This document shows positions 16,019 through 29,004 of a stretch of DNA of 43,825 nt, in pieces. Position numbers and translations under genes: made by a program. Under the pieces are notes generated by a model. The model did no database searches and was not told the DNA's origin. It was given only the letters and a program-made list of their open reading frames with translations. Source of the DNA: Chrysochromulina tobinii (Eukaryota); assembly GCA_001275005.1 (NCBI GenBank), contig JWZX01002079.1, positions 1 through 43,825 of the forward strand, given 5' to 3'. Every line of letters begins with the position of its first letter. Positions within the stretch are counted from its first letter, which is position 1.

Positions 16019-19000
16019 ATGCCTCCCCAAAAGACGCCGCGAGCGCTGTCGCCTGCTAGCAAGAGCGGCGGCCTAACACCTCGCAGCGGTGCGAGCAGCG
16101 GCGGCCTAACACCTCGCGGCGGTGCGAGCTCACCACGTGGCCCGCCGCCGGCTGGTTCGGCGTGCAAATCGGCGCGTGGCTCCTCACCAGCCAAGAACGG
16201 CAGCAGCAGCAATGGCAGCAGCACGGCCCGTGGGCCGTCGCAGGCGGCCGACATTTTCGGCGGCGGCAGCAGGCAGCCCGTGCTCAAGGGCCGCACGGCT
16301 GCTGTGCCATCGCCGACCCTTGCAGACGGCAGCAGCAGCGGCGGCGGCGGCGCATCCACCGCGCGCGTGAGGATAGATCCTGTGGCACGCGAGCGTATGA
16401 TAGATCCTTCGGGAGAAGGCGGCGGAGGCGGGTCGTCGTCGTCGGACGCCGCGGCTACTGGGGCCGACCCGAGCAGCGGGCGTGGTCCCCTGTCGGGCCA
16501 GCGACCTGGGCTGCCCGAGCTCGAGCTGCCGCGGCCGATGGTCGCGGCGAAGGCGCTGGTCGTGCGTACGGGCTTCGAGCTCTCGACGCCTAAGCTGGCC
16601 GAGATGGCGGCGGGCACGCCGGTCGAACTGCTCGAGATGCGCCAGCTGCCCGACTACACGGCGCGCGCGCTCATCGCGATCCGCAACGGCCCGCGAGGCT
16701 GGGTCTCGATGTGGTCTCCCAAGGACCGAATCATGCAACTCGTCGAGCTGAGCGGCGGCGGTTTGACCTCCGGCCGGCAGGGCAGCGGGCGCGAGGGCGC
16801 CGCCAACGGCGGCGCGGCACCCAACTCGGGAGGCCGCGAGAATGCATCTCCGGGGCGGCCTGGTGCGAAGGGCGGCCTGGCTGGCGGTGCTCATGGCGGC
16901 GCATCCAAAGGGGAGCCTTCGACGGTGGCGGGGCCGGCGGCCCCGCGCATGCCAACGTACATGATCTCATCGCCCAAGCCACTGCTCGCGCGCACCGAGT
17001 TCGACTTGCAATCCGGCCGCGTGGGAGACCTCGAGCCGGGTACGCGAGTCCACGTACTCGAGTCGCGCCCTCTGCCGGACGGCGGCAGGCGCGTGAGGCT
17101 CTCTCTGGAGGTGAACCCGAGCGTCACGTACGGCTGGGTGACCGCGATCACGAAGAGCGGGCAGGAGAACCTCGCGCCGTATCTCTTCGAGGTGATGACC
17201 CCCAAGCCGCTGCTCGTGCGAAAGGAGTTTGACCTCAAGTCCGAGAAATTGGGCGAGATTGCGCCCGGGACGCTCGTCTTTGTACTCGAGGTACGCGCGG
17301 CGAGCGACGGGTCGCAGCGCACGCACTTTGCGTTCGCGACGGCGTCGGGCGGCATGAGCGCGGGCGGCTGGGTGACCTCGGTGACGAAGGATGGCGCGGA
17401 GAATCTGGCCGTCGCCGCGCGTGGCAAGGCGGCCCTGCGGTCGGCCGCCGGAGGGTCTGCCGCCGCGTCGGGCGTCGATGCGAGCAGTATACAAAAGATC
17501 ATGGACAGTGCGAAGGCGGGTGGGAAGGCCGAGATGGCGGCAGCGGCGGCGATGCTGCTCGCCAAGGTGGCGAGCAAGGGGGCGAAGAAGCCATCCGACG
17601 ATGACGCGAGCGCAGCCGGCGCGGCCGCCGCTCTCGAGGAGGGGAAGAGGCCGACGACGCCGCGGGCGGCGAAGAAGCCCTCGGAGGAGGGGAAGAAGCC
17701 CACGACGCCGCGGGCGGACGGCGGCGGCGGCACGACGCCACGGGCCAGCGGTAGCACCACACCTAAATCTGGCAAGGGCGTCGCACAGCAAGCGCAGGGG
17801 TTGAGCGGTGCCGAGAAGCAGAAGATGGAGGAGGCGGCGCTTCAGGCGAAACGAGAAGAGGTGAAGCGCGCGGTCGCGGATGCAGCCAACGCGCTCGCAA
17901 AGCTCGTCTCCAAAAAGCCTTTTGAGGAGAAGGAGTTTACGTACAAGCGCTTGGAGGCCCACCGGCCCAGTGGCAAGGCGGAGGAGATGCCCTCACGACA
18001 TACTGCCGTGCCGAGCTGCGGGCTGGTGCTCATGTTCAACTGCTACCGTGCGTCCTTCGAGCTGCTGCAGGGCGACCTGTCCTCCCTGCCCGAATCGGAG
18101 GCGCTCGACCTTCGCTCGCTCACCTCGGGGGCCTCCCTCGGCCGGTGCAAGATCGCGCCCGAAAAGGGAACCCCTTTCGTCGACCGCATCGAGTTCCCGA
18201 ATGAGTGGAAGACGGGTGACGAACACGGCCTCGAGCACAATGGGCTTCAAGGGGACGGCTGCCTGCTGGTGAAGATCGAATGGAAGGAGCCCAAAAGCGA
18301 GACCCAATTAGTGCCGCACGCCGCGCTCATCAAGTGCAATCCATGGCTCGCCTATGGGTGTGCCGAGGGAGCGCGCGTGATGATCCGAAAAGCTACTGAT
18401 ACGCAGGGAAAGTGTGCGACGGTGCAGCGCACGCTGCGCGACGATTCGGTCGTCGTGCGCGTGGATGGCACGATCGGCGAGTCGACAGTCGACCCGATGC
18501 CGCTGACGGTCGTGCGCACCTCCAACCCTCGGCACGAGCCAGGGACGCGCCTGCTCTATCTGCACGACGTGAACCTCGTCGATGCGGTCGTGGAGCACTG
18601 GCCCGAGAAGACGATCGACGTCAAGGAGGGCTCCCGCCATAAGCTGCAGGTCCAAGGCGTGGCCAAAACCGGCTGGGTCACGGCTGCCTCCTCCGCGGGT
18701 GAGGAGTTCCTCAAGGGGCCGGAGGACGGCACGCTGACGGCCGATGGCACCCCTCTGCCCGACGATGGCTCGGTCATGCAGGTCAAGGGGAGCAAGGCGC
18801 TCAAGGTGAACGCTGAATGTGGAGAGAGCGCTGAGAAAGCGGCGAAGGCGGCGCAGACGGCGCAGCTCGCGCCACGTTCCTTTGTGCACGTGCACGAGAC
18901 GAAGACACTCGAAGACGGCACCAAACGCTGCTGCATCTCGACGATCGCCGAGCAGGGCACAGTGCTCACCGCGGCTCTCAACGAGTTCAACCACGCGATG

Positions 19001-28000: not shown

Positions 28001-29004
28001 ACGGGCGACCCTTTGAGGCCAATTGCGGACTTCATCGGCTGCTCGGGCTCGGTTCTGAAGAGGAGCTCAAGCACATCAAGGACGGCGGCGAGGCTACGCT
28101 GGTCGCGGAGATCACGAAATGCAAGACGGCCGAGCGAGACGTGGGCGGCTTCGACGACATGTATTGGCTCAACTACGTGCAGAGCGAGCCGGCCGAGGAG
28201 CGCGCCATGCCGGCGGGCATGCCCGCACCGAGCCTTGACCAGGGCCACACGGGCATGATGCTCGACGACTTTGTGAAGCTGCCGACGGCCGCCGCGGCCG
28301 GGCTCAAGCGCATCCACGTCCTCGCGCTGCGGCTGTACACCACCTCGGTGCACCAGACGCTCAACAGGGCGTTACGCGAGGGCTGCTCACCCGCACGACC
28401 GCACCCGTACCCTGCGCTCGTCGCTTGGCTGTGCGAGGCGCTCCACAAGCTGATGCGCTGCGAGGCCGAGACCGCCCGAGCGGAGGAGCTCGCCAAGGCG
28501 CGACGGGGCGCTTCGGCCAGTGCCATGGAGGAGCTTGCGGACAGGGAGCCCGCGGAGAAGGAGAAGACGCGCACCGTGTGGCGCGCCGTGGACATGAGCG
28601 ACAGATATGGCAAAGGCGAGACGCGGCATGAGCACTTCGACTTTAGCGAGTTCCGCTCCCGGGGCGGGACGGAGCTCGGTTTCGTCTCGACCTCGCCGAA
28701 CCGCGACGTCGCCGAAGAGTCAGCGATCCCGAGCCAGACGGGCGCGGAGGACGCGCCCGGGACGGCGCCCATGCCACTCGTGCTCAAGGTGCGCGCCGAT
28801 CTTCAAAAGGGCGCCGTTCCGGGCGTCGACCTGAGCTTCCTCTCCGTGTTCCCTTCGGAGAAGGATTGCGTCTATCCTCCTGGCACGTACTTCGAGCCGC
28901 GCACGGGGTACGAGGAGCCGGTCGTGCTGCCCTCGGGAGAGGAGATCACGCTGCGTGTCTTTGAGGTCGTGCCGCGCGTCTCGTCACTCTTCCTCACCTG
29001 GTGA
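16019..29004 (+). CDS. Giant NLR-ROCO-ART protein (~4243 aa): SH3-like repeats - NACHT (with RelA/SpoT-like insert) - LRRs - Roc - COR - Zn ribbon - ADP-ribosyltransferase. Exons 16019-19726, 19824-20385, 20459-21000, 21085-29004
   Basis: Three GT-AG introns join four track ORFs in frame (12732 nt). NACHT: AGPGTGKT, LIDGVDE, VTSRP, IPVLLSLL, YQFKHLSFQE. RNI-like LRRs then LxxLxxLxLxxNxL LRRs. Roc: LLGHGESGKTSL, ERT, WDLAGQ, VITHCD, CISA. COR: IPKSW, LQPDYITRLLK, WKRG. ART: LALRLYTT, VWR, ELGFVSTS, DLSFLSVFPSEKDCVYPP. Confidence 0.85.
19727..19823 (+). other. Spliceosomal intron (97 nt) flanked by a 12-nt direct repeat
   Basis: AAG|GTGATCAGCAGC...CCCCTTCCCCCCACAG|GTGATCAGCATC. AGGTGATCAGCA occurs at 19725-19736 and 19822-19833. 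Removal restores the NACHT frame. Confidence 0.85.
20386..20458 (+). mobile_element. Intron (73 nt) of the introner-like CCTCCCTCATCAG family
   Basis: GGAG|GTGAGCTCGAGA...CTGATTGCCTCCCTCATCAG|GCGAGCTCGAGA. It contains a stop and its removal restores the frame. Intron status is strong; mobility is inferred. Confidence 0.65.
21001..21084 (+). mobile_element. Intron (84 nt) of the introner-like CCTCCCTCATCAG family
   Basis: CAG|GTCGGCGAGCTCAAATCTC...CTGATGGCCTCCCTCATCAG|GTCGGCGAGCTCAAATCTC. Perfect 22-nt direct repeat (20998-21019 and 21082-21103) and an in-frame TGA inside. Confidence 0.7.
27498..27612 (+). repeat. Coding 30-bp tandem repeat x~4 (DSFR[N/H]RSDST)
   Basis: GGATTCCTTTAG(G/A)(A/C)ACCGAAGCGACA(G/C)CAC units that alternate, giving a 60-bp higher-order period. 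Confidence 0.95.

What the first reader, a model, noticed from the sequence alone, without database searches (positions are those of the whole stretch)
16019..29004. Single-chain NLR + ROCO + ADP-ribosyltransferase protein (~4243 aa)
Seen: after splicing, one reading frame carries SH3-like repeats, NACHT Walker A/B and winged-helix motifs, two LRR classes, Roc G-motifs, COR, a CPGC...CELC pair and a terminal ART. Established: NACHT-LRR proteins are innate immune sensors, LRR-Roc-COR is the LRRK/ROCO core (usually followed by a kinase), and R-S-E ARTs are toxin-type effectors. Inference: this is a sensor-switch-effector with two nucleotide switches (ATPase and GTPase) sharing the LRR array, and an ART where LRRK2 has its kinase. 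It is plausibly an algal antiviral or cell-death device. I know of no characterised protein with this architecture.
Basis: partly seen in the sequence, partly recalled or inferred. Interest (0 to 1): 0.87.

Follow-up and report, generated by a model that had tools for sequence, protein, structure and literature searches.

The report
Giant algal NACHT-ROCO-ADP-ribosyltransferase fusion protein
One expressed 4,243-codon gene of a haptophyte alga joins a NACHT-type ATPase, leucine-rich repeats, a Roc-COR GTPase and a toxin-type ADP-ribosyltransferase fold in a single chain, which likely acts as an intracellular sensor-and-effector, although its transferase carries Asp where relatives have the catalytic Glu.

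Summary
Four exons (16019-19726, 19824-20385, 20459-21000, 21085-29004) give one 4,243-aa frame. RNA contigs show introns 2 and 3 spliced out. Homologues of 3,000-3,800 aa align collinearly across all three junctions. GenBank already holds a 4,129-aa single-gene model, KOO31139.1, "leucine rich repeat-containing protein", Chrysochromulina tobinii.

Domain calls:
- Roc and ART pass Pfam's cut-offs. The ART fold model (pLDDT 86) matches HopU1, C3 and ExoS.
- NACHT and COR-B fall just under cut-off here, but relatives pass, and the NACHT motifs are intact.

- The ART triad is R / S-T-S / E-K-D. Asp replaces the catalytic Glu, also in a 98%-identical allele, while all 27 relatives aligned over the motif keep Glu.
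- The architecture is not unique. At least 13 long relatives carry Roc plus this ART.
- A conserved ~200-aa domain sits inside the NACHT module. Two fold searches on a low-confidence model put RelA/SpoT-type synthetases on top, but sequence tests do not support this.

The immune or cell-death role is inference only. I found no paper describing this architecture. Verdict: new variant of a known kind, interest about 0.64.

The parts
16019..19726 (+). Exon 1 (aa 1-1236): low-complexity N-terminus, three SH3-like repeats, a conserved region of unknown fold, and the NACHT nucleotide-binding domain
   Evidence: Open frame. Same start as GenBank model KOO31139.1. RNA contig X3 record 24 covers 15995-17233.
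19727..19823 (+). Intron 1 (97 nt, GT..AG), with 'gtgatcagca' repeated at both borders
   Evidence: Sequence. 48-nt RNA unitig joins 19707-19724 to 19822-19851 (X1 record 4; X4 record 30 listed only for its 19822-19851 part; 18 letters on one side only), and unspliced contigs are also present. The junction ...NEQQRK|VISIQM... is collinear in 16 of 16 aligned homologues.
19824..20385 (+). Exon 2 (aa 1237-1423)
   Evidence: RNA contigs in three runs begin at 19822.
20386..20458 (+). Intron 2 (73 nt), ending in the repeated element CTGATTGCCTCCCTCATCAG
   Evidence: RNA contig X3 record 26 skips 73 nt, 20383>20457, GT..AG (cut +2). Element found.
20459..21000 (+). Exon 3 (aa 1424-1604), variable region rich in charged residues that looks coiled-coil by eye
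21001..21084 (+). Intron 3 (84 nt), flanked by a 19-nt direct repeat and ending in CTGATGGCCTCCCTCATCAG
   Evidence: RNA contig X2 record 19 skips 84 nt, 20997>21082, GT..AG (cut +3). Sequence, element.
21085..29004 (+). Exon 4 (aa 1605-4243 plus stop). One uninterrupted frame carries the inserted domain, the rest of the NACHT module, the LRRs, Roc, COR, the Cys4 motif, the linker and the ART
   Evidence: Open frame. RNA contigs with 0 differences tile most of it.
16550..17428 (+). Three SH3-like repeats (aa ~178-470)
   Evidence: Pfam SH3_3 at 23.9 bits, E 4.7e-5, below the cut-off of 27. Three units share the pattern GT.V.vLE.R...D..R...GWV. A self-BLAST found no repeat at E 0.01.
17864..19138 (+). 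Conserved N-terminal region of unknown fold (aa ~616-1040)
   Evidence: Aligned at 45-56% identity in many long homologues. No Pfam family. No Atlas lead.
19256..19835 (+). NACHT-type nucleotide-binding domain (aa ~1080-1240). Walker A GPGTGKT 19283-19303; Walker B LIVLIDGVDEA 19529-19561; ILVTSRPEG 19625-19651
   Evidence: Pfam NACHT 24.5 and 23.7 bits (cut-off 26.7); NPHP3_N 25.1 bits (cut-off 24.8). 11 of 11 aligned family members hit NACHT at E<=0.01. Relatives P0044 and P0045 pass the cut-off.
21097..21690 (+). Conserved enzyme-like domain inserted in the NACHT module (aa ~1609-1806), possibly of RelA/SpoT (RSH) fold. Motifs: TDVLRAR 21181-21201, DPTHFR 21466-21483, AEVEVHY 21532-21552, YEHYNFFR 21595-21618
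   Evidence: 175 relatives at E<=1e-3. Near-invariant charged residues. VIA-align puts eight RSH chains among its first nine ranks, Z 5.3-6.8. Foldseek ranks 1-10 are all small alarmone synthetases or GTP pyrophosphokinases, E 8e-3 to 5e-2. Both used a low-confidence model. Sequence tests were negative.
21691..22689 (+). Rest of the NACHT module (helical and winged-helix-type part, aa ~1807-2139). GIPVLLSLLVLIF 21700-21738; FKHLSFQEGLFAQHLL 22486-22533
   Evidence: Sequence. Strongly conserved in the family. No Pfam or PDB sequence hit. The fold model was poor.
22690..25077 (+). Ribonuclease-inhibitor-type LRR region (aa ~2140-2935)
   Evidence: Pfam LRR_6, 45.7 bits against a cut-off of 23.4.
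25078..25407 (+). Typical (LRR_8 / LRR_4) repeats directly before Roc (aa ~2936-3045)
   Evidence: Pfam LRR_8 62.1 bits, LRR_4 48.5 bits.
25516..25905 (+). Roc GTPase domain (aa 3082-3211). GHGESGKT 25531-25554; DLAGQ 25708-25722; THCD 25894-25905
   Evidence: Pfam Roc 35.2 bits against a cut-off of 27. Motifs seen in the sequence and in the family alignment.
25906..27228 (+). COR region (aa ~3212-3652). The COR-B match covers aa 3531-3652
   Evidence: Pfam COR-B 24.4 bits against a cut-off of 27. Orthologue P0032 scores 34.4 bits. COR-A was not detected.
27205..27366 (+). Cys4 motif, CPGC (aa 3645-3648) ... CELC (aa 3695-3698)
   Evidence: The two CxxC pairs are conserved in 12 of 12 homologues that cover the region (13 of the 16 aligned; in the 13th, P0036, the first pair reads CPSC).
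27400..27957 (+). Low-complexity Ser/Asp-rich linker (aa ~3710-3895) with RNRSDSTDSF-type repeats
   Evidence: Sequence. Variable among homologues. Kept in RNA contigs, whereas the GenBank model removes part of it.
27970..29001 (+). ADP-ribosyltransferase-fold domain (aa ~3900-4243). R4104 in VWRA 28576-28587; S4139-T-S4141 in 28684-28695; E4196-K-D4198, with the Asp codon GAT at 28864-28866
   Evidence: Pfam ART 26.1 bits against a cut-off of 22.3. 19 of 19 family members hit PF01129 and 11 of 19 hit PF03496. Family profile against PDB: Tre1 8e-6, Vis, ExoT, HopU1, XopAI, SpvB, C3. AlphaFold2 pLDDT 86.4. Foldseek: HopU1 3.3e-5, Plx2a, XopAI, VIP2, ExoS, C3. Motif alignments; codon.

Best explanation
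This is one transcribed and spliced 4,243-codon gene of the haptophyte Chrysochromulina tobinii. Its product fuses a NACHT-type ATPase, two kinds of leucine-rich repeats, a Roc-COR GTPase and a C-terminal ADP-ribosyltransferase-fold domain. It likely works as an intracellular NLR-like sensor whose two nucleotide switches would gate its enzyme-like output domains.

Shown here:
- The gene structure and its expression.
- The domain order: SH3-like repeats, conserved unknown region, NACHT NBD, ~550-aa insertion with a conserved enzyme-like domain, NACHT helical part, RI-type LRRs, typical LRRs, Roc, COR-B, Cys4, linker, ART.
- Intact P-loop, Walker B and sensor motifs in NACHT, and intact G-motifs in Roc.
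- An ART fold of the R-S-E clade with Arg and S-T-S kept, but Asp in place of the catalytic Glu.
- Recurrence of the whole architecture in a haptophyte family.

Inferred by analogy with NLRs and with LRRK/ROCO proteins:
- A ligand or a cellular disturbance read by the LRR region (and perhaps by the N-terminal repeats) would release autoinhibition.
- ATP-bound NACHT would oligomerise.
- Roc-COR would add a GTP-dependent, dimerising checkpoint.
- The C-terminal ART would then modify a target with ADP-ribose from NAD+. In this orthologue it would do so weakly, or with altered chemistry, because of the Glu-to-Asp change.
- The domain inserted in NACHT, possibly a RelA/SpoT-type nucleotidyl or pyrophosphoryl transferase, would be a second output or a regulatory module.

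The biological setting (defence against viruses or regulated cell death) is the most likely one but is untested.
For: Gene and transcript:
- The spliced frame is 4,243 aa with no internal stop.
- RNA contigs are spliced at introns 2 and 3, and there is a weak junction unitig for intron 1.
- RNA depth is zero in X1 and X2 at 15000-15516 and 29993-30500, while the gene body is covered.
- 14 RNA runs hold 0.82-0.95 of the sampled words of 19000-22000.

One chain:
- P0032 aligns in one HSP over q982-4240 (57% identity), P0038 over q520-3704 and P0041 over q740-3566. Each crosses all three exon junctions (junction alignments).
- GenBank KOO31139.1 (4,129 aa) has the same start and end, on a 43,825-nt contig.

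Domains:
- Roc scores 35.2 bits against a cut-off of 27; LRR_8 scores 62.1 and LRR_6 45.7.
- ART scores 26.1 bits against a cut-off of 22.3.
- NACHT is matched by 11 of 11 family members at E<=0.01 (best 1.2e-6), and NPHP3_N scores 25.1 against 24.8. NACHT is above cut-off in P0044 and P0045.
- COR-B scores 34.4 bits in P0032.
- ART fold: pLDDT 86.4. Foldseek top hits are HopU1, Plx2a, XopAI, VIP2, ExoS and C3. The family profile hits Tre1, Vis, ExoT, HopU1, SpvB and C3 in PDB.

Family:
- An ART profile finds the domain at the C-terminus of 13 of the 25 long relatives P0031-P0055, plus one fragment. Several of the 11 without it are truncated by their contigs.
- Roc is present in 14 of 14 long relatives scanned.

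Inserted domain:
- It has 175 relatives at E<=1e-3.
- 21 of 102 relatives scanned carry a NACHT or NPHP3_N domain upstream of it, and 17 carry LRRs.
- Charged residues are near-invariant: D 72/74, R 71/74, R 114/114, E 109/115, Q/E 113/115, H 100/115.
- RSH structures top two independent structural aligners.

Precedent: RelA_SpoT-NACHT-WD40 architectures are listed for fungal NLRs (PMC4986451, passages read).
Against: - No functional data of any kind bear on sensing, oligomerisation, GTP or ATP turnover, or ADP-ribosylation.
- The catalytic Glu of the ART is Asp in this gene and in the 98%-identical P0031. RNA contigs show the same codon with 0 differences. From recall, Glu-to-Asp at this position lowers activity by orders of magnitude in several bacterial ART toxins.
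- Other family members have lost the Arg (P0034, P0038, P0039) or the ExE (P0038, P0039). The ART may therefore not be the working output in every member.
- NACHT and COR-B are below Pfam's cut-offs in this protein, and COR-A is not detected.
- A family profile of the NBD finds only weak AAA+ matches in PDB, the best being Cdc48 at 8.7e-4.
- The Roc-COR stretch alone has no PDB sequence hit at E<=0.1.
- The family is strongly conserved (45-63% identity over ~2,000-3,000 aa; 68-80% in the NBD). This is not the pattern expected of fast-evolving immune receptors.
- Contigs cannot prove a single 13-kb transcript.
- The RSH assignment rests on a model of mean pLDDT 42 and fails every sequence-based test.
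Confidence: 0.5

Rival explanations
1. The ART-fold domain is a pseudoenzyme in this orthologue, serving as a binding or regulatory module. The real output lies elsewhere: in the enzyme-like domain inserted in NACHT, or in scaffolding by the oligomer.
For: E-K-D replaces ExE here and in P0031, while all 27 relatives aligned over that motif keep Glu at the second position. Three long relatives have lost the Arg (P0034, P0038, P0039), and two of them have also lost the ExE (P0038, P0039). P0044 and P0045 end right after the Cys4 motif with no ART; 8 of the 15 listed members of their 22-member cluster have 3,211-3,212 aa. The inserted domain keeps near-invariant charged residues.
Against: Arg and S-T-S are kept, and the NAD-binding helix HVLALRLYTT is invariant. 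Asp retains a carboxylate, so low or altered activity (for example NAD+ hydrolysis) is possible. The domain is 98% conserved between alleles and still folds confidently.
Confidence: 0.35
2. The protein is a conserved housekeeping signalling scaffold of haptophytes, for example for cytoskeleton, haptonema, flagella or membrane traffic, as for several Dictyostelium and animal ROCO proteins. It is not an immune or cell-death device.
For: Collinearity and sequence conservation across genera are high. RNA is present in 14 culture metatranscriptomes with no infection context known to me. Roc-COR proteins have many non-immune roles (PMC11378527, passages read).
Against: NACHT plus RI-type LRRs, a toxin-type ART and a possible RSH-type domain are the parts typical of conflict systems (recalled). 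The family has several paralogues in one genome: KOO31139.1, KOO22124.1 and KOO29767.1. Catalytic sites vary between members. NACHT, LRR and TIR genes are reported as up in virus-resistant Gephyrocapsa huxleyi, but not this gene (PMC12489294, passages read).
Confidence: 0.3
3. The long frame is an annotation or assembly artefact, and two or more separate genes lie here.
For: RNA contigs are fragmented, and none spans the whole gene. Gene callers without intron models split it; the Atlas, for example, holds the exon-1 frame as a protein of its own. P0031 starts at q1619.
Against: Exon 4 alone is one 2,639-codon frame from the NACHT helical part to the ART. Introns 2 and 3 are spliced in RNA. 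Homologues from other assemblies run through all junctions in single HSPs. The GenBank model is also one gene.
Confidence: 0.03

Closest known systems
LRRK2 / ROCO proteins (LRR-Roc-COR followed by an enzyme domain)
   Same: Typical LRRs lie directly before a Roc GTPase with G1-G5-type motifs, followed by COR-B and then a C-terminal catalytic-type domain.
   Different: The output domain is an ART fold, not a kinase. There is no WD40, ankyrin or armadillo part. A complete NACHT module and a long RI-type LRR array lie upstream. COR-A is not detected by Pfam.
Animal NLRs of the NOD/NLRC type (NACHT + ribonuclease-inhibitor-type LRRs)
   Same: The NACHT motifs and a FKHLSFQE-type winged-helix motif are followed by LRR_6 repeats.
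   Different: The effector-like domains lie C-terminal to the LRRs rather than N-terminal to NACHT. A ~550-aa insertion splits the NACHT module. A Roc-COR GTPase is added. Pfam NACHT is sub-threshold for this protein.
Brown-algal LRR-ROCO candidate immune receptors (PMC11378527; passages read)
   Same: These are algal LRR-Roc-COR proteins proposed, without functional proof, as immune receptors.
   Different: They are about 1,200-aa proteins with the simple LRR-ROCO arrangement. That paper's text mentions neither NACHT (0 occurrences) nor ADP-ribosylation (0 occurrences).
Fungal NLRs with an N-terminal RelA_SpoT domain (PMC4986451; passages read)
   Same: A RelA/SpoT-type domain is combined with NACHT in one STAND protein, if the inserted domain here really is RSH-like.
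   Different: In fungi the domain is N-terminal and is recognised by Pfam. Here it is inserted after the NBD and is not recognised by Pfam in any of 115 sequences (this protein, 12 + 64 + 38 relatives).
Bacterial R-S-E ADP-ribosyltransferase toxins and effectors (Tre1, HopU1, XopAI, ExoS/T, C3, VIP2, Vis)
   Same: The fold and motif order match: Arg, then S-T-S, then an [EQ]-x-E loop followed by the YPP motif shared with Tre1.
   Different: The domain sits at the end of a 4,243-aa eukaryotic cytoplasmic-type protein. It carries a conserved ~110-aa helical N-terminal extension. The catalytic Glu is Asp.
CapRel / small alarmone synthetases (RSH-fold enzymes; 7ztb_A, 6fgk, 5dec among the structural hits)
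   Same: There is weak structural resemblance of aa ~1636-1770, and conserved acidic and basic residues occur in the same order.
   Different: There is no significant sequence or profile similarity. The signature residues differ (DVLRAR, E-x-[QE]-x-H). The activity is unknown.

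Membership tests
NACHT NTPase (STAND; Pfam PF05729) | Walker A P-loop GxxxxGK[ST] | tested here: met
   GPGTGKT at aa 1089-1095; invariant in 15 of the 15 homologues that cover it (16 aligned; P0043 starts after it).
NACHT NTPase (STAND; Pfam PF05729) | Walker B followed by extra acidic residues (hhhhDGxDE), and a TSRP-type sensor-1 strand (motif definitions recalled) | tested here: met
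   LIVLIDGVDEA at aa 1171-1181 and ILVTSRPEG at aa 1203-1211.
NACHT NTPase (STAND; Pfam PF05729) | Score at or above Pfam's gathering cut-off (26.7 bits) | tested here: inconclusive
   This protein scores 24.5 and 23.7 bits, E 2.7e-5 to 4.7e-5, over 153 of 167 profile positions. NPHP3_N scores 25.1 against a cut-off of 24.8. 11 of 11 aligned relatives hit NACHT at E<=0.01. P0044 (30.8) and P0045 (28.8) pass, that is 2 of 14 long relatives.
NACHT NTPase (STAND; Pfam PF05729) | Helical and winged-helix domains after the NBD, with a conserved His motif (recalled) | tested here: inconclusive
   The motifs GIPVLLSLLVLIF...LPSNRIELYE and FKHLSFQEGLFAQHLL are present. The fold model of this part is unusable, with pLDDT below 50 for residues 190-497. 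There are no Pfam or PDB sequence hits.
ROCO (Roc-COR tandem) | Roc domain above Pfam's cut-off, with G1, G3, G4 and G5 motifs | tested here: met
   PF08477 scores 35.2 bits against a cut-off of 27. The motifs are GHGESGKT, DLAGQ, THCD and SAV.
ROCO (Roc-COR tandem) | COR-B after Roc | tested here: inconclusive
   PF25497 scores 24.4 bits against a cut-off of 27, E 2.8e-5. Orthologue P0032 scores 34.4 bits.
ROCO (Roc-COR tandem) | COR-A between Roc and COR-B | tested here: inconclusive
   There is no PF16095 match in this protein or in 14 long relatives. About 320 residues lie between Roc and COR-B. The collection's precomputed list gives PF27087.1 for most relatives, a model I could not identify.
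R-S-E clade ADP-ribosyltransferases (PF01129 / PF03496) | Family profile match and ART fold | tested here: met
   PF01129 scores 26.1 bits against a cut-off of 22.3. 19 of 19 relatives hit PF01129 and 11 of 19 hit PF03496. The model has pLDDT 86.4. Foldseek gives HopU1 at 3.3e-5 and 33 matches at E<=0.001.
R-S-E clade ADP-ribosyltransferases (PF01129 / PF03496) | Catalytic Arg and the S-T-S motif | tested here: met
   R4104 (VWRA) and S4139-T-S4141 align with the family's WRG and STS columns.
R-S-E clade ADP-ribosyltransferases (PF01129 / PF03496) | Catalytic Glu of the [QE]-x-E motif | tested here: not met
   The motif is E4196-K-D4198, with codon GAT at 28864-28866. P0031 is the same. All 27 relatives aligned over the motif have Glu there. 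So this is a member of the fold family, but not shown to be an active R-S-E enzyme.
RelA/SpoT homologue (RSH) synthetase fold (PF04607), for the domain inserted in NACHT | Match to the family profile | tested here: not met
   PF04607 is not matched by this protein, by 12 close relatives, or by 64 + 38 distant relatives. hhalign against E. coli RelA gives Prob 0.24. Profile against profile gives Prob 0.12. PDB profile searches are empty.
RelA/SpoT homologue (RSH) synthetase fold (PF04607), for the domain inserted in NACHT | Structural similarity to RSH synthetase domains | tested here: inconclusive
   VIA-align: ranks 1-5 and 7-9 are Rel, SAS2, Rel, RelA, SpoT, SAS1, CapRel and RelP, Z 5.3-6.8 over model residues 32-167. 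Foldseek: ranks 1-10 are all SAS or GTP pyrophosphokinase, E 8e-3 to 5e-2, none at E<=0.001. The model has pLDDT 42 overall and about 40-70 in this part. In the Atlas, the only named family is RelA_SpoT, carried by 24% of one cluster, score 0.87.
SH3_3 (bacterial-type SH3) | Pfam match above cut-off | tested here: inconclusive
   23.9 bits against a cut-off of 27, E 4.7e-5, for one unit. Three units share a visible pattern. No self-BLAST repeat was found.

The most novel reading that the evidence does not exclude
A three-enzyme immune machine. This would be an NLR whose NACHT module carries an active RelA/SpoT-type nucleotide pyrophosphokinase. On activation that enzyme would make an alarmone-like messenger or would modify tRNA, as CapRel does in bacteria. 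A Roc-COR GTPase would gate the machine, and an ADP-ribosyltransferase would arm its end. If so, the bacterial abortive-infection enzyme types would be wired into one eukaryotic receptor, and the same inserted domain would mark a large, unrecognised NLR family (175 representative clusters).
Probability: 0.15. Interest if true: 0.88.

Novelty: new variant of a known kind. Interest (0 to 1): 0.64.

Why it matters
NLRs (NACHT-LRR) and ROCO proteins (LRR-Roc-COR-kinase, including LRRK2) are studied as separate switch families. Here nature has put both switches on one chain around a shared LRR array, and has replaced the kinase with a toxin-type ART fold.

If the protein can be expressed in pieces, it offers a natural system to ask how an ATP-driven oligomeriser and a GTP-driven dimeriser are coupled. 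It would also show whether ROCO outputs other than kinases exist.

For algal biology, it names a conserved family of candidate sensors in haptophytes. These are bloom-forming hosts of giant viruses, and their innate immunity is almost unknown.

The domain inserted in the NACHT module defines a much wider set of NACHT-LRR proteins that current family libraries do not describe. That makes the question of its fold and chemistry directly testable.

Tried and rejected
- The whole genome of the window is not held, so paralogue counts come only from protein collections.
- Atlas search of the conserved N-terminal region (P0001 residues 660-1075) gave no usable hit. That region remains unassigned.
- AlphaFold2 of aa 1605-2139 with 12 close relatives gave mean pLDDT 42.3. 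It is unusable for the winged-helix and helical part. Only residues ~30-170 gave interpretable, weak matches.
- The profile of that region against PDB gave only low-complexity matches: Mx1 stalk at E 0.036 and a CNG channel.
- Pfam on its 12 members gave nothing at E<0.01.
- The NBD profile against PDB gave only AAA+ P-loop matches, the best being Cdc48 at 8.7e-4, and no NLR chain.
- Roc-COR as a single sequence against PDB gave no hit at E<=0.1.
- Sequence tests of the RSH idea:
  - Pfam RelA_SpoT was never matched.
  - The A4 profile against PDB gave 0 hits at E<=10.
  - hhalign of A4 against the E. coli RelA synthetase region gave Prob 0.24.
  - hhalign of a 178-row profile of the domain against a 114-row RelA profile gave Prob 0.12, E 0.48. 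The single aligned piece does pair DVLRAR with DVRAVR.
- A search of PF04607 through the E. coli record yielded only relA and spoT as loci.
- Self-BLAST of the N-terminal 1,100 aa found no internal repeat at E 0.01.
- Earlier findings of this scan by words and by sequence returned nothing on this protein.
- Literature searches (one search was a syntax error and was resent as 94) found no paper that describes a NACHT + Roc-COR + ART protein. I read only search listings, plus passages of PMC12489294, PMC7159879, PMC11378527 and PMC4986451. No supplements were opened.
- I considered that the Asp codon might be an assembly error and rejected this. Three RNA contigs cover 28864-28866 with 0 differences, and P0031 has the same residue.
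- No complex-prediction job was sent.

Full report
**What is in the sequence.** The window is GC-rich, 0.57-0.72 per kb. On the + strand two exceptional open frames stand out, 15926-20029 (1367 codons) and 21058-29004 (2648 codons). Two shorter frames lie between them. Reading the DNA gives three short GT..AG introns: 19727-19823 (97 nt), 20386-20458 (73 nt) and 21001-21084 (84 nt). Joined in a script, the four exons (16019-19726, 19824-20385, 20459-21000, 21085-29004) give 12,732 nt = 4,243 codons with no internal stop.

**Is it one expressed gene?** Fourteen RNA runs hold 0.82-0.95 of the sampled words of 19000-22000.
- Laid on 15000-30500, RNA contigs of three runs cover the stretch from 15995 to about 29900. 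Two of the runs have zero depth at 15000-15516 and at 29993-30500.
- One contig skips exactly 73 nt (20383>20457, X3 record 26) and another exactly 84 nt (20997>21082, X2 record 19). Both skips have GT..AG ends.
- For intron 1, a second lay shows a 48-nt unitig that joins 19707-19724 to 19822-19851 (X1 record 4; X4 record 30 is listed only for its 19822-19851 part). One side has only 18 letters, below the tool's bridging rule. Unspliced 145-nt contigs lie beside them.
- Contigs cannot show a single 13-kb transcript.
- Independent support comes from relatives. P0032 aligns in one HSP over residues 982-4240 (57% identity), P0038 over 520-3704 and P0041 over 740-3566, so each runs through all three junctions. 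In the multiple alignment the junction peptides match the homologues residue for residue.
- Exon 4 alone is a single frame from the second half of the NACHT module to the ART.

**Public record.** The cluster of the 98%-identical P0031 contains KOO31139.1, 'leucine rich repeat-containing protein [Chrysochromulina tobinii]'. It has 4,129 aa and lies on a contig of 43,825 nt, the length of this window. It shares the start and end of my model and differs at three places:
- It removes aa 290-343.
- It has 9 extra residues at the exon 2/3 junction.
- It removes aa 3737-3805.

RNA contigs keep 16886-17047 (X3 record 24) and 27481-27687 (X1 record 7, X2 record 22, X3 record 29) without gaps, and they show the 73-nt form of intron 2. 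The 4,243-aa model therefore fits the RNA contigs better. The gene is thus already deposited as one gene, but named only for its LRRs.

**Domains, from N to C.**
1. Three SH3-like units lie at aa ~178-470. Pfam SH3_3 scores 23.9 bits, under the cut-off of 27. The units share a visible pattern.
2. A region at aa ~616-1040 is conserved in many relatives. It has no family match and no Atlas lead.
3. A NACHT-type NBD carries GPGTGKT (1089-1095), LIVLIDGVDEA (1171-1181) and ILVTSRPEG (1203-1211).
   - Pfam NACHT scores 24.5 and 23.7 bits (cut-off 26.7); NPHP3_N scores 25.1 (cut-off 24.8).
   - 11 of 11 aligned relatives hit NACHT at E<=0.01.
   - Two of 14 long relatives pass the cut-off.
   - A family profile finds only weak AAA+ P-loop matches in PDB.
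4. A ~550-aa insertion follows, made of a variable charged part and a conserved ~200-aa domain (see below).
5. The rest of the NACHT module carries GIPVLLSLLVLIF...LPSNRIELYE and FKHLSFQEGLFAQHLL, which I recognise from recall as NACHT helical and winged-helix signatures. No tool confirmed the fold.
6. RI-type LRRs (LRR_6, 45.7 bits) are followed by typical LRRs (LRR_8, 62.1 bits).
7. Roc scores 35.2 bits against a cut-off of 27 and carries GHGESGKT, DLAGQ, THCD and SAV.
8. COR-B scores 24.4 bits against 27 here and 34.4 bits in P0032. COR-A is not detected. The Roc-COR stretch alone has no PDB sequence hit.
9. The CPGC (3645) and CELC (3695) pairs are conserved in 12 of 12 homologues that cover the region (13 of the 16 aligned; in the 13th, P0036, the first pair reads CPSC).
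10. A Ser/Asp-rich linker follows.
11. The ART closes the chain.

**The ART.**
- On the last 349 residues, PF01129 scores 26.1 bits against a cut-off of 22.3.
- A search for longer proteins found 28 relatives. All 19 sequences of alignment A1 hit PF01129, and 11 hit PF03496.
- The family profile hits Tre1 (8e-6), Vis, ExoT, HopU1, XopAI, SpvB, VsdC and C3 in PDB.
- AlphaFold2 with that alignment gives mean pLDDT 86.4.
- Foldseek's best matches are HopU1 (3.3e-5), Plx2a, XopAI, VIP2, ExoS and C3. In all, 33 matches reach E<=0.001.

The catalytic loop is not. The family's WRG Arg is kept (VWRA, R4104), and S-T-S is kept (4139-4141). The [EQ]-x-E motif, however, reads E-K-D (4196-4198; GAT at 28864-28866).
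- All 27 relatives aligned over the motif have Glu at that position. The 98%-identical P0031 has Asp too.
- RNA contigs over the codon have no differences.
- Among the long relatives, P0034, P0038 and P0039 have lost the Arg, and P0038 and P0039 have also lost the ExE.
- P0044 and P0045 end after the Cys4 motif with no ART.

So the ART is a variable, sometimes degenerate end of this family. In this gene it is at best a weakened or altered enzyme. That Glu-to-Asp lowers activity strongly in bacterial ART toxins is recalled, not tested.

**The family.** A search with residues 10-2300 of the exon-4 frame returned 48 proteins. The first ~25 have 42-98% identity with 32-99% of the query covered, and lengths up to 3,856 aa.
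- An ART profile finds the domain at the C-terminus of 13 of the 25 long relatives P0031-P0055, plus one fragment.
- Roc is found in 14 of 14 relatives scanned.
- Names, where given, are haptophytes: Chrysochromulina tobinii, C. parva, Haptolina brevifila and Prymnesium sp..
- C. tobinii itself has at least two further members, KOO22124.1 and KOO29767.1.

**The domain inside the NACHT module.** Between the sensor-1 strand and the GIPVLLSLL helix lie about 550 residues. The last ~200 of them (aa 1609-1806) are conserved.
- An exhaustive search found 175 representative relatives at E<=1e-3, 53 of them at 1e-10.
- Of 102 relatives scanned with Pfam, 21 carry NACHT or NPHP3_N about 250-450 residues upstream of the domain, and 17 carry LRRs, mostly downstream of it. 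None has any family over the domain itself.
- It is therefore a recurrent, undescribed part of a NACHT-LRR family.
- Its charged residues are near-invariant: D 72/74, R 71/74, R 114/114, E 109/115, Q/E 113/115 and H 100/115. This looks like an active site.
- From recalled motifs I suspected a RelA/SpoT-type (RSH) fold.

Every sequence test failed. Three weak leads agree with the idea:
- The only named family in the Atlas feature search is RelA_SpoT, carried by 24% of one cluster at score 0.87.
- VIA-align on the poor model places Rel, SAS2, Rel, RelA, SpoT, SAS1, CapRel and RelP at ranks 1-5 and 7-9, with Z 5.3-6.8.
- Foldseek's ranks 1-10 are all small alarmone synthetases or GTP pyrophosphokinases, with E 8e-3 to 5e-2.

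The model has pLDDT of only about 40-70 there, and such Z values are common by chance. I put the RSH reading at roughly even odds. Fungal NLRs with RelA_SpoT-NACHT-WD40 are a precedent (PMC4986451).

**Mechanism.** The following is shown: the parts, their order, and intact nucleotide-binding motifs in both NACHT and Roc. The following is inferred from NLR and ROCO knowledge. The LRR region, and perhaps the N-terminal repeats, would sense a ligand. ATP-bound NACHT would oligomerise. Roc-COR would add a GTP-dependent, dimerising control. The ART and perhaps the inserted domain would act on targets. A defence or cell-death role is plausible, since these are the typical parts of conflict systems and there are paralogues with variable catalytic sites. 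It is untested, and the strong conservation of the family fits a housekeeping signalling role as well.

**Comparison and novelty.** The closest known kinds are LRRK/ROCO proteins (same LRR-Roc-COR core, different output) and NOD-type NLRs (same NACHT-LRR logic, different layout). Brown-algal LRR-ROCO candidates are simpler (PMC11378527). Five literature searches found no description of a NACHT + Roc-COR + ART chain. I therefore rate it a new variant of a known kind: real, recurrent and already deposited, but not recognised or characterised.

Noticed in passing
window 20386-20458, 21001-21084 and about 37219-37315: Three short introns (the third is putative) share one design. A direct repeat of the flanking exon sequence (about 12 to 29 nt) supplies the GT donor. 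CTCTGATG-type repeats follow, and the intron ends in CTGAT[GT][GA]CCTCCCTCATCAG. The element occurs 3 times in the window against 0 expected. Depth in run X15 jumps to 452 around intron 3, which points to a genome-wide repeat. This looks like a mobile, intron-generating element and agrees with earlier finding e1-2577349 on another piece of this genome.
   Followed up: partly
window 5765-13252 (+) and 2816-5902 (-): Two large dynamin-family GTPase genes lie directly upstream. One is a 2,495-codon frame with FHA and Dynamin_N. The other is a 1,027-codon frame with Dynamin_N and DUF7605. Three giant GTPase or NTPase genes therefore sit side by side. Whether this is a functional cluster is unknown.
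   Followed up: no
window 16886-17047, 20386-20458, 27481-27687: The GenBank model KOO31139.1 differs from the RNA-supported model at three places. It treats two low-complexity stretches as introns, and it uses a different intron-2 border that adds 9 residues. RNA contigs keep both stretches and show the 73-nt intron.
   Followed up: yes
window 25646-25690: One RNA contig (X2 record 21) carries a run of small deletions, 27 gap letters in all, in the Gly/Pro-rich loop between switch I and the DLAGQ motif of Roc. This is probably a length-variant allele or a close paralogue.
   Followed up: no
window 22826-24987: Contigs in three RNA runs join 22843 to 24970 with 11 other letters between, and have long loose ends on both sides. 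They most likely come from a paralogue with a shorter LRR array rather than from alternative splicing of this gene.
   Followed up: no
window 27400-27957: The linker before the ART holds near-tandem copies of a RNRSDSTDSF-type decapeptide and is rich in Ser and Asp. It may be a regulated or phosphorylated hinge. It is variable among homologues.
   Followed up: no
window 13486-14712 (-), 31929-33302 (-), 33648-34859 (+), 38556-39611 (-), 39762-40823 (+): Other neighbouring frames match an alpha/beta hydrolase, a lysyl oxidase, a SAM-domain protein, a sulfotransferase and a GST C-terminal domain.
   Followed up: no
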